Assembly (NCBI GenBank): GCA_964106645.2
Contig: OZ067042.1
Strand: one strand, 5' to 3'
Source: Podarcis pityusensis
Lineage: Eukaryota
Length of the DNA: 64,000 nt
Shown: piece by piece, positions 1-3,000 of the stretch
How the letters are laid out: each line of letters begins with the position of its first letter
Numbering within the stretch: position 1 is the stretch's first letter
Made by a program: the position numbers

Positions 1-3000
1 ACGCAGCTCCATGCCGGGAAGGGGAGAGCAAGAGGCAAGCAGGAAGGCATGTCCAGCGGCTGCCACAACCGGCCCACCCTGAGGCGAAGCAGACCCTCCC
101 CTCAGGGCCCTGGCTCCAGCTAAAGCCCCCTCTGACCTGGGGTGGCGCCTTTTCCGCGGCCGAGGGAGCGAAGGCTCCGCGTCGCGGCGATAAGGGGGAG
201 AAGGGAGCAGCCAGGAGCGCAGCGCCTGGGAGAGCCATTTGTACATAGGCCTCAGCCACAGCGGCCGGCCCGGAATTGCGTCACTTTCCCGCGACCGGCG
301 CGCAGTCAGTGACGAAGTGACGAAGAGATTAGGAAGGGAGGCTGTTTATATACTGTATATCTATATTTCGAAACTTTTCTCTTCACCCGCCGTCTGCTCT
401 AAAAGAAAACAAAGTGTGCGCTTCATATGCATGGTCATAGTATTCTCTTACTTTGGGCCGAGCTCCATGTCTGCAGTTCTGCTCCTCGCGCACCCGTCAG
501 GCGTCTTTCCATTCGGGTCTCTACTGCCTGACGGGCGGGGGGAGGGGGAGACCCTATTTTATACCACGCGGGTGCGGAGAACATGGGCGGGGGGACCACA
601 GGAGCCAGTAAACGCGGAGAACGCGCGCTTTTTCGCAGCCCTTTGCCTTCCCCACCCTGGTTCTCCACTTATTTGCCTGCCTTTAACTCCCGTCAGCGCC
701 CACCATGGACCGTCCTGGCTGGGGCTGATGGGAGTTGAAGTCCAACAGGAACCCGGAGCCGAAGGGGTAGAGCGCCGCCCCATAGACTCGGAGGCCGGGA
801 TGGCGGGCGGCCATTTTCACAGGAAGTTCCGGCTGTGCGTCGCCACGTCCCTCCTCTGTTTGTGTGAGGGACGGGGCGCCGCGTCACGCGGGGGCAGGTC
901 CCGGAGTTCGCCGCGCGGCGCTTTCCGTTCCTCCTCGTTTTCCGTTCCTCCCGGCGGCCGTTGTGAATGCTCCGCTATGCGCTCCCTCGGAGGGTTCTTG
1001 CTGGTCCTGGGGGCGGCCACGGCGGCGCTTTACTTGCTGTCGGTGCGGCTGCCCGGAGAGCCGCGCGCGGGGAGCGGGTGAGTGGGACTCTTCCTCGGCG
1101 GCTTCGAGGCGGTTGCGGCTTGGCGGGGGCCCCGCTCGCGGAGCTGGGATGCTGCGCTCTTCCCAGGGAGGAGGAGGAGAAGCGAGCCTCGGCTTCATTA
1201 ATGCCTCAGCGGCGTCTTCTCTCTTCGGGATTGTTGACTTGCACTCACTTGCCCCGAGAGCAGAAGGTCCTGGGTTTTTTGCTGAGGGCGCCTGCGACTG
1301 TGATTGACAGCGAGCCTAAAAATACACCGCCGCCGAAATCCGATGCTACCCTTCGCGTGTGCGGTGCTCGGAAATGTGCTGCTGCATGCTCTGAACTAAG
1401 TTTAGGTGTGTAGGAAGTTGTTATGAAACAGCCTCGAGATGTTCAAGTGGTCTCGGGTACCCGCTGAGCTGAAGGGAGTTGGTGCCCCCTTTCACCATAC
1501 ATTTAAAGCACGCACACACTAATAATCCTGGGAACTGTAGTTTGCTCCTCATGGTACTGCAGATCCCAGCACCCTTAACAAACTGCAGCTCCCAGGATTA
1601 TTTTTTTCGAATGTGGGGCGGGGGGCAGGGAAAGAGGGATGTGCTTTAATTGTGCTTTAAATGTATGGTATGTGTACACAGCTGTAAGTAATGACTTGTG
1701 GACTTTGGAAGGCACTATCCTCTTATTCCAAAATTGCTGACAGATTGATTGATTGTAACAAAAGCAGTGGTGCAGTCGTAAGGTCATTTGGACTCTAGAC
1801 TTAATACTTGTAACTGGAGGCTCTTCAGATGGTAGTGTGTTGTGACACATCCTTCAGAATCTAGCACCACTGAGCATAAGTTGTGTTTCGGTTTTGTTTT
1901 TGATGCTGTTTAAAGAATGCTTGTCCCACAATAAATCTGTTAGTCTCTAAGGTATCACAGCATGTTAGAATTTATTCAGTAACATACAGTACTACTCTTC
2001 AATCATACATGCCTTGGTGCATATTTCAAATGACTTCTTGCTGCTTGTTCATCCATCTATGAACTTGCAGTGGCAAGCTCAGCCACAGAATAGCATTTAA
2101 TAAAGAGCACTCCACACTTCAGATGTCTTGCTTCAGGCAACATCTTGCTATCTAAAAGTAAGAGTTGTAGAGGTCTTAAAGCAGAAAGGCTTGGGTCTTT
2201 CCAGAACAATGACTATAGTTTAGTGAGAATTGAATGATCCTTATGACTGACCTCTGTCAGTAGTTTTTAGGGGATCAGCTTCTCATTGTAGAGAATATCA
2301 CTGATTTTTCCCTCATTTCCTTTTTACTTTAGGTTATACACATATCAGGAATTTGAATAGCTGTTAAGTTTTAAACAGTTGTAAAACCAGCGGCCTGTCT
2401 TTGCCACAAAATCAAAGCTAAGCAGTAGCCCACCATACCCCACAGGTACCAGAATTCACTGCAATTCTTTTCTGCAATTCCTAACTCAGCAAGTATCTTG
2501 TAGTAATTAAGGCTGTATTTTTAAAAATGTAATCAACTGTTTGCTTCAGTAAAATATGTTGAAATCTGAACATGATTGTTTTACAGTTTGAATTTTCATG
2601 AGAAACTAGCGATAAGCAGAGCTGATGCATTTCACAGACTGACAAATCCTGAGCACTGTGGAAAAAATACAGCCTAAATTATAACTCTCCTTCTGCGTTA
2701 GATTTCACTTAAGAAGGATTCTAACTTTGAATTGCTGCCTCTGATGAATCTCACCAATGTATACTGTACTAACAGTTTAATACGTGGCTTGCTTTCTTAA
2801 TTGTCCAAAGTTTTAGTAACTAGCACCTTCCTTGCTTTGCTGAAATGTTGCACCTTTATGCTCTGTGTTAGCATTAGGCCACAAGGTAAAGATACTACAC
2901 TTGTTTCTGCTTGAAAAGTTAATTGCTGAGTTCTTGTTGAAACCAAGCAATGAATGAACGAATGGCATGAATAACTGTGTGGTCACAGTTTAAGAGAAGG

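What the first reader, a model, noticed from the sequence alone, without database searches (positions are those of the whole stretch)
137..1077. SENP2 and TMEM41A head-to-head with ~730 bp between ATGs: no room for LIPH
Seen: an MYKWL...RKRRH exon on the minus strand directly faces TMEM41A exon 1. Known: the human order is MAP3K13-TMEM41A-LIPH-SENP2, and LIPH generates LPA for LPAR6 signalling in hair follicles. Inference: LIPH is lost or relocated in this scaled reptile, or it was inserted here in other lineages, leaving one compact bidirectional promoter. No lipase exon was noticed elsewhere in the window.
Basis: partly seen in the sequence, partly recalled or inferred. Interest (0 to 1): 0.65.

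Follow-up and report, generated by a model that had tools for sequence, protein, structure and literature searches.

The report
Lizard SENP2–TMEM41A shared promoter, no LIPH
In this lacertid lizard the genes SENP2 and TMEM41A start back to back only 730 bases apart, where mammals keep the lipase gene LIPH, an ordinary kind of gene-order change whose cause (loss or move of LIPH) could not be settled here.

Summary
Window 137-246 (minus strand) is the first coding exon of SENP2. All 36 codons are identical to the annotated Podarcis lilfordi SENP2, and a GT donor follows. Window 977-1077 (plus strand) is the first coding exon of TMEM41A. The two start codons lie 730 bp apart, inside a CpG island. 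The whole MAP3K13 coding sequence follows tail to tail at 33822-17716, minus strand. This is therefore the orthologue of the mammalian MAP3K13-TMEM41A-LIPH-SENP2 block, with the LIPH slot empty.

A Pfam scan of 1007 of the 1277 open frames of 30 aa or more found no lipase domain anywhere in the 64 kb.

The interpretation stays open. No LIPH sequence and no lizard assembly were available, so loss and relocation could not be told apart. The only paper found lists a LIPH-type gene in Anolis and two in chicken, one of them on chromosome 9 (PMC3482443).

Most likely LIPH was removed from this slot in the lizard lineage, leaving a bidirectional CpG-island promoter. This is ordinary in kind and of modest interest.

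The window is lizard, not human.

The parts
137..246 (-). SENP2 first coding exon (ATG at 246-244; 36 codons plus 2 bases; GT donor at 136-135)
   Evidence: 36 of 36 residues identical to P. lilfordi SENP2 (P0001), E 2e-13
1..136 (-). Start of SENP2 intron 1; the rest of the gene lies left of the window
   Evidence: only residues 1-27 of the SENP2 proteins align anywhere in the window; identity stops at residue 36
247..976 (.). 730-bp spacer between the two start codons; CpG island and putative bidirectional promoter (includes both 5' UTRs)
   Evidence: GC 0.605, CpG observed/expected 1.0, 67 CpG (computed on 247-975); the 500-bp windows 1-1500 all meet island criteria; no Pfam domain; no Rfam family
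331..480 (.). AT-richer patch that splits the spacer into two CpG-rich halves; possible old junction between two once-separate promoters (inference only)
   Evidence: GC 0.42 and CpG o/e 0.76, against 0.64/1.27 (247-330) and 0.655/0.96 (481-975)
723..741 (-). ZNF143/Staf-like word (consensus recalled from memory); also a word of a repeat family in this window
   Evidence: 6 matches in the window against 0.53 expected; this copy has 0 mismatches
805..828 (+). Cluster of a GC box, a YY1-like GCCATTTT and an ETS-like AGGAAGT (consensus words recalled; motif matches only)
977..1077 (+). TMEM41A first coding exon (33 codons plus 2 bases; GTGAGT donor)
   Evidence: Sceloporus (P0006) and Varanus (P0009) TMEM41A align from residue 1 at 977
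4271..4424 (+). TMEM41A coding exon 2
   Evidence: 92-100% identity to squamate TMEM41A; AG/GT splice sites
7111..7272 (+). TMEM41A coding exon 3 (VTT domain)
   Evidence: VTT_dom, E 2.2e-6
8102..8240 (+). TMEM41A coding exon 4 (VTT domain)
   Evidence: VTT_dom, E 2.7e-6
9049..9272 (+). TMEM41A last coding exon with stop codon. The five exon lengths sum to 259 codons, the length of Sceloporus and Varanus TMEM41A
17716..33822 (-). Complete MAP3K13 coding region, tail to tail with TMEM41A
   Evidence: kinase exons; 388 hits, top ones named MAP3K13 of squamates, Zootoca 98%; 13 tblastn segments covering residues 1-969

Best explanation
The left end of the window holds the shared 5' region of two genes of a lacertid lizard. 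SENP2 is read leftwards and TMEM41A rightwards, and their start codons are 730 bp apart inside one CpG island. The two genes are most likely transcribed divergently from this island, that is, from a bidirectional promoter. It is built of two CpG-rich halves around a 150-bp AT-richer patch.

In mammals LIPH lies between these two genes. Here that slot is empty, and there is no lipase exon in the next 63 kb, which hold all of TMEM41A and all of MAP3K13 in the mammalian order and orientation.

The most likely history is that LIPH sat at this locus in the amniote ancestor and was removed in the lineage leading to this lizard. I favour a single deletion, which would mean loss of the gene, over excision and re-insertion elsewhere. 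The deletion brought two formerly separate promoters together.

Shown: exon identities, spacing, CpG island, synteny, absence of lipase domains in the window.
Inferred: divergent transcription from the spacer, the ancestral state, and deletion rather than relocation.
For: - SENP2 exon 1 is identical (36 of 36) to the annotated lacertid protein.
- TMEM41A has five exons with canonical splice sites and VTT-domain hits.
- The full MAP3K13 coding sequence lies on the minus strand.
- The spacer has GC 0.605 and CpG o/e 1.0.
- 0 lipase hits in 596 of 596 frames of 45 aa or more and in 411 further frames of 30-44 aa outside the two gene bodies. The same per-frame scan did pick up 2 TMEM41A exons and 4 kinase exons, so single exons are detectable.
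- The window has no N, so no gap hides a gene.
- The SENP2 and TMEM41A models named Podarcis lilfordi list the same 98,317,578-bp contig. So do Zootoca and Rhineura SENP2 with their MAP3K13.
- Polarity: rabbit has MAP3K13, TMEM41A and LIPH on one BAC, with SENP2 next (PMC3084274, one passage). Human LIPH lies near MAP3K13 and SENP2 (PMC3482443).
- Chicken has a LIPH-type gene on chromosome 9 (PMC3482443). Chicken TMEM41A sits on a 23,733,309-bp contig, which I recall to be the length of chromosome 9.
- Holmes and Cox list two LIPH-type genes in chicken but one in Anolis, which fits loss of one copy in lizards.
Against: - No search for LIPH outside this window was possible, so an intact LIPH elsewhere is not excluded.
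- Anolis has an annotated 442-aa 'LIPH' (PMC3482443). Its position relative to TMEM41A and SENP2 is unknown, as is whether it groups with chicken chr9 'LIPH2' or chr1 'LIPH1'.
- No tuatara, turtle, crocodilian or other squamate locus was seen.
- Transcription start sites are unknown. If either gene had an upstream non-coding exon, the genes would overlap rather than share a spacer.
- Motif matches were not tested against chance, except the ZNF143-like word. That word belongs to a repeat family and may be a transposon fragment.
- 270 frames of 30-44 aa inside the TMEM41A and MAP3K13 gene bodies were not scanned. Per-exon Pfam scans missed 3 of the 5 TMEM41A exons, so a badly decayed lipase relic could escape.
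Confidence: 0.5

Rival explanations
1. Relocation. LIPH is intact in this lizard but lies elsewhere, on the far side of SENP2 or on another chromosome, after local rearrangement. The compact spacer is the by-product.
For: A LIPH-type protein is annotated in another lizard, Anolis (PMC3482443). LIPH is reported from fish to mammals in that paper, so outright loss would be unusual. Nothing left of position 1 could be examined.
Against: Moving one gene out from between two others while leaving both neighbours' promoters working needs more breakpoints than a deletion. There is no lipase domain in the 64 kb seen. Anolis shows one LIPH-type gene where chicken shows two.
Confidence: 0.25
2. Ancestral adjacency. 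The head-to-head SENP2-TMEM41A arrangement with a shared CpG island is the old, general non-mammalian state, and LIPH was inserted between them in the mammalian lineage (or the mammal and bird lineages).
For: As far as I recall, CpG-island bidirectional promoters are often ancient. The spacer shows no recognisable scar or lipase relic. Only mammalian sources for the order with LIPH in between were found.
Against: The spacer is not uniform: it consists of two CpG-rich halves around an AT-richer patch, as expected if two promoters were brought together.
Confidence: 0.2
3. Assembly artefact. LIPH exists between the two genes, but the assembly collapsed or dropped it.
For: None found. It can never be fully excluded from a single window.
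Against: The sequence is continuous, with no N. The junction lies in unique CpG-island sequence, not in a repeat. The annotated SENP2 models of three squamates start with the same exon.
Confidence: 0.03

Closest known systems
Mammalian 3q27-type block MAP3K13 - TMEM41A - LIPH - SENP2 (human, rabbit)
   Same: The same three flanking genes occur in the same order and relative orientation: MAP3K13 tail to tail with TMEM41A, and TMEM41A's 5' end towards SENP2's 5' end (PMC3084274 passage; PMC3482443 passage). The exact human order and strands are from my recall.
   Different: LIPH is missing from between TMEM41A and SENP2.
Vertebrate bidirectional CpG-island promoters (divergent gene pairs with starts less than 1 kb apart; definition recalled from Trinklein et al. 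2004, not read here)
   Same: Head-to-head genes, start codons 730 bp apart, CpG o/e 1.0, GC-box, YY1-like, ETS-like and ZNF143-like words present.
   Different: Transcription start sites and co-expression are unknown. In mammals neither gene pairs with the other, so if the pair is derived it is a newly made bidirectional pair.
LIPH / LIPI / PLA1A phospholipase A1 subfamily of the pancreatic lipase family (Pfam Lipase PF00151)
   Same: Nothing in the window belongs to it.
   Different: 0 of 1007 scanned frames match. Chicken is reported with two LIPH-type genes (chr1 and chr9) and Anolis with one (PMC3482443).

Membership tests
SENP2 (sentrin-specific protease 2) | N-terminal exon matching annotated SENP2 orthologues | tested here: met
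   36 of 36, 34 of 36 and 29 of 36 residues identical to the Podarcis, Zootoca and Rhineura SENP2; E 2e-13
SENP2 (sentrin-specific protease 2) | C-terminal Ulp1/C48 peptidase domain (PF02902) | not testable with these tools
   The rest of the gene lies left of the window. The matched database proteins carry PF02902
TMEM41A | VTT domain (PF09335) and best matches named TMEM41A rather than TMEM41B, VMP1 or TMEM64 | tested here: met
   VTT_dom hits in two exons. In the 120 rows listed of 375 hits, the source names are TMEM41A-type or uninformative (hypothetical, uncharacterised, 'VTT domain-containing', or none); none says TMEM41B, VMP1 or TMEM64. Five exons align at 81-100% to squamate TMEM41A
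MAP3K13 (LZK) | Kinase domain plus the long C-terminal exon matching MAP3K13 orthologues | tested here: met
   Kinase Pfam hits. The 329-aa frame is 98% identical to Zootoca MAP3K13. Residues 1-969 map in 13 segments
LIPH (pancreatic lipase family, PF00151) | Any exon with a lipase alpha/beta-hydrolase domain in the window | tested here: not met
   0 hits in 596 frames of 45 aa or more at E up to 0.05 and in 411 frames of 30-44 aa at E up to 0.02. 270 small frames inside the two gene bodies were not scanned
LIPH (pancreatic lipase family, PF00151) | Presence of a LIPH orthologue elsewhere in this genome | not testable with these tools
Bidirectional promoter | Two genes head to head on opposite strands | tested here: met
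Bidirectional promoter | Transcription starts less than 1 kb apart | tested here: inconclusive
   The start codons are 730 bp apart, which bounds the distance only if both exons are first exons. No RNA data
Bidirectional promoter | CpG island spanning the spacer | tested here: met
   GC 0.605, CpG o/e 1.0 over 247-975. The 500-bp windows 1-1500 pass the island criteria
Bidirectional promoter | Divergent, correlated transcription of both genes | not testable with these tools
   Needs CAGE, RNA-seq or reporter assays

The most novel reading that the evidence does not exclude
Lacertid lizards, perhaps all squamates, have lost the true LIPH gene outright through one clean deletion that welded the SENP2 and TMEM41A promoters into a new bidirectional promoter. 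The single 'LIPH' annotated in lizards would then be the LIPI-type paralogue (the chicken chr1 type). Scaled reptiles would make LPA for LPAR6 without the enzyme that mammalian hair follicles depend on.
Probability: 0.3. Interest if true: 0.45.

Novelty: new member of a known kind. Interest (0 to 1): 0.28.

Why it matters
If LIPH is truly gone from lizards, this would be a lineage-specific loss of a conserved extracellular phospholipase A1 that feeds LPAR6 signalling in mammalian skin appendages. It would also be a dated example of a bidirectional promoter created by deletion of the gene in between. That is useful for asking how two housekeeping promoters adapt to sharing one CpG island. If LIPH has only moved, or if this is the general sauropsid order, the finding is a routine synteny note. 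Either way the three gene identifications and the exon tables are solid annotation for this window.

Tried and rejected
I replaced it with per-frame scans of stop-free open frames.
2. The 36-aa SENP2 exon was under the search tool's 40-aa minimum. I resent it with five upstream codons.
3. Literature: ten searches.
   - liph+lpar6+reptiles: 0 papers.
   - liph+lizard: 3.
   - liph+tmem41a+senp2: 3.
   - liph+senp2+chicken: 1.
   - tmem41a+chicken+liph: 0.
   - liph+squamat: 8, none relevant by title.
   - liph+anolis: 3.
   - GL343230: 1.
   - liph+tmem41a: 5, all mammalian.
   - liph+reptil: 52, of which 25 were listed, none about the gene by title; the stem probably matches unrelated words.
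   - None reports LIPH loss, relocation or synteny in reptiles. Only PMC3482443 and PMC3084274 were opened.
5. An Rfam scan of the whole window gave 0 families, so there is no known RNA gene in the spacer.
6. The apparent CpG island at 36.5-37.1 kb, first taken for the MAP3K13 promoter, is a 118-bp GC-rich tandem array.
7. A search for terminal inverted repeats around the transposase frame found none.
8. Not used: structure prediction, complex prediction, the atlas search and the representative search. None bears on the question.

Full report
**What is in the sequence**

The window has no N. On the minus strand an ATG at 246-244 opens a frame of 36 codons plus two bases. The frame ends at 137 and is followed by a GT donor at 136-135.

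The exon was searched on its own. It is 36 aa, under the tool's 40-aa minimum, so it was sent with five upstream codons. It found 4 proteins among 4 candidates. Three are named sentrin-specific protease 2, from Podarcis lilfordi, Zootoca vivipara and Rhineura floridana. The fourth is unnamed and was left unused. The best E-value was 2e-13.

Residue by residue, the exon is identical to the Podarcis protein in 36 of 36 positions, to Zootoca in 34 of 36 and to Rhineura in 29 of 36. Identity stops exactly at the predicted splice site. Residue 37 is S in all three, as the split AG|N codon requires. Only residues 1-27 of these proteins align anywhere in the window by tblastn, so the rest of SENP2 lies to the left.

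On the plus strand the TMEM41A start codon is at 977-979 and the exon ends at 1077 before GTGAGT. The frame around the fourth exon, searched alone, found 375 proteins among 2613 candidates. In the 120 rows listed, the source names are TMEM41A-type or uninformative, and squamates are near the top.

Named squamate TMEM41A proteins align to five segments of the window at 81-100% identity. Canonical splice sites give exons at:
- 977-1077
- 4271-4424
- 7111-7272
- 8102-8240
- 9049-9272

Their lengths sum to 259 codons, the length of the Sceloporus and Varanus proteins. Only lengths were summed. Two of these exons also hit the Pfam VTT domain.

**Surroundings**

Four frames on the minus strand between 29350 and 31949 hit protein-kinase domains. 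A 329-aa frame at 24178-25164 is 98% identical to Zootoca MAP3K13; that search gave 388 hits among 3037 candidates. The Zootoca protein maps over residues 1-969 in 13 segments, from 33822 down to 17716.

The order in the window is therefore:
- SENP2 exon 1 (minus strand)
- TMEM41A (plus strand)
- MAP3K13 (minus strand)

This is the mammalian block with the same relative orientations. The window is clearly from a lacertid lizard. The closest named proteins are Podarcis and Zootoca, and TMEM41A exons are 95-100% identical to the Podarcis lilfordi model, so it is probably a close relative rather than that species. I do not take it for human.

**Is there a lipase?**

I scanned every stop-to-stop frame of 45 aa or more against Pfam instead: 596 of 596, at E up to 0.05. 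I then scanned 411 of the 681 frames of 30-44 aa, namely all those outside the TMEM41A and MAP3K13 gene bodies (E up to 0.02).

None of the 1007 frames matched the lipase family PF00151. The same scans found 2 TMEM41A exons, 4 kinase exons, a reverse-transcriptase fragment and a transposase, so single exons can be seen. They also missed 3 of the 5 TMEM41A exons, so a few decayed exons could escape. 270 small frames inside the two gene bodies were not scanned.

**The spacer**

Positions 247-975 have GC 0.605 and CpG observed/expected 1.0, with 67 CpG. The 500-bp windows from 1 to 1500 all meet island criteria.

The spacer is not uniform:
- 247-330: GC 0.64, o/e 1.27
- 331-480: GC 0.42, o/e 0.76
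- 481-975: GC 0.655, o/e 0.96

It holds four GGGCGG boxes, one YY1-like and one ETS-like word close together at 805-828, seven TGACG half-sites, one E2F-like word and one ZNF143-like word at 723-741 (the consensus words are recalled). These are matches to short words, not evidence of function.

The ZNF143-like word occurs 6 times in the window against 0.53 expected. It also sits in a hairpin-like repeat in intron 1, so the copy in the spacer may be a repeat fragment. No Pfam domain and no Rfam family lies in the spacer.

**How it most likely works**

Two genes face away from each other with start codons 730 bp apart in one CpG island. This fits the usual picture of a bidirectional promoter. 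That both exons are first exons, and that transcription is divergent from here, is inferred. No RNA data were available.

**History**

The mammalian order is supported by two papers:
- A passage of the rabbit rex paper (PMC3084274) puts MAP3K13, TMEM41A and LIPH on one BAC, with SENP2 as the next gene.
- A passage of Holmes and Cox 2012 (PMC3482443) places human LIPH near MAP3K13 and SENP2.

The exact human order is my recall.

Holmes and Cox (passages and section 15 read) list two LIPH-type genes in chicken, at chr1:101.4 Mb and at chr9:4,675,149-4,684,014. They list one in Anolis, XP_003224081.1, with 11 exons and 442 aa, on scaffold GL343230.

Chicken TMEM41A is on a contig of 23,733,309 bp, which I recall as the length of chromosome 9. 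This suggests, but does not prove, that LIPH was linked to TMEM41A before mammals and sauropsids split. The lizard state would then be derived.

A single deletion is mechanically simpler than cutting the gene out and re-inserting it. The two-halves structure of the spacer would fit two promoters brought together. One LIPH-type gene in Anolis against two in chicken would fit loss of one copy.

Against this, the orthology of the Anolis gene is unknown, adjacency in chicken was not seen, and no other sauropsid locus was available.

My weights are:
- Deletion and loss: about 0.5
- Relocation: 0.25
- Ancestral adjacency: 0.2
- Assembly artefact: 0.03

**What could not be done**

- No LIPH sequence was available from any tool and sequence from memory is barred, so LIPH could not be searched anywhere outside the window.
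- No vertebrate assembly was on hand.
- Ten literature searches found no report of LIPH loss, relocation or synteny in reptiles.
- Unnamed database hits that might be human were not used.

**Verdict**

The empty LIPH slot is real in this assembly. Whether it means gene loss is open. In kind it is an ordinary gene-order change and an ordinary CpG-island bidirectional promoter, so interest is modest.

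Noticed in passing
window 59906-61633 (+), with 59026-59645: An open frame of 576 codons (first Met at codon 10) carries DDE_1 (E 1e-37), HTH_Tnp_Tc5 and CENP-B_N domains. It is an apparently intact pogo/Tigger-type transposase or a domesticated derivative. No flanking terminal inverted repeats were found in 58800-62600. A 150-bp x 4.1 tandem array lies just upstream.
   Followed up: partly
window 36470-37146: The second 'CpG island' of the window is a GC-rich minisatellite (118-bp unit, 5.7 copies, 96% matches). It lies about 2.6 kb upstream of the first MAP3K13 coding exon (33322-33822), so it is not necessarily a promoter.
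   Followed up: partly
window 1494-1669 (TMEM41A intron 1): A hairpin or MITE-like element: perfect 18-nt inverted arms (1494-1511 / 1652-1669) enclose 24-nt arms (1521-1544 / 1579-1602). These arms carry the ACTACA..TCCCAG word that occurs 6 times in the window against 0.53 expected.
   Followed up: partly
window 800-979: An out-of-frame ATG at 967 lies ten bases before the TMEM41A start at 977 and opens a 148-codon overlapping frame. An in-frame ATG at 800 is used by the 319-aa Podarcis lilfordi model (P0007), giving a 59-aa N-terminal extension that the Sceloporus and Varanus proteins lack; the Anolis model (P0019) has a different, longer one. A 16-nt direct repeat (919-934 / 936-951) lies in the presumed 5' UTR.
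   Followed up: no
window 54001-54500: A third CpG-rich window (GC 0.62, o/e 0.86) has no protein-domain hit nearby. It may be an upstream non-coding first exon or promoter of MAP3K13, or of an unannotated transcript.
   Followed up: no
window 21474-21731 (+): A weak reverse-transcriptase (RVT_1, E 0.0025) fragment inside a MAP3K13 intron, probably a LINE remnant.
   Followed up: no
window 8029-8064 and 38031-38061: Perfect dinucleotide microsatellites: (CA)18 in TMEM41A intron 3 and (TG)15.5 upstream of MAP3K13.
   Followed up: no
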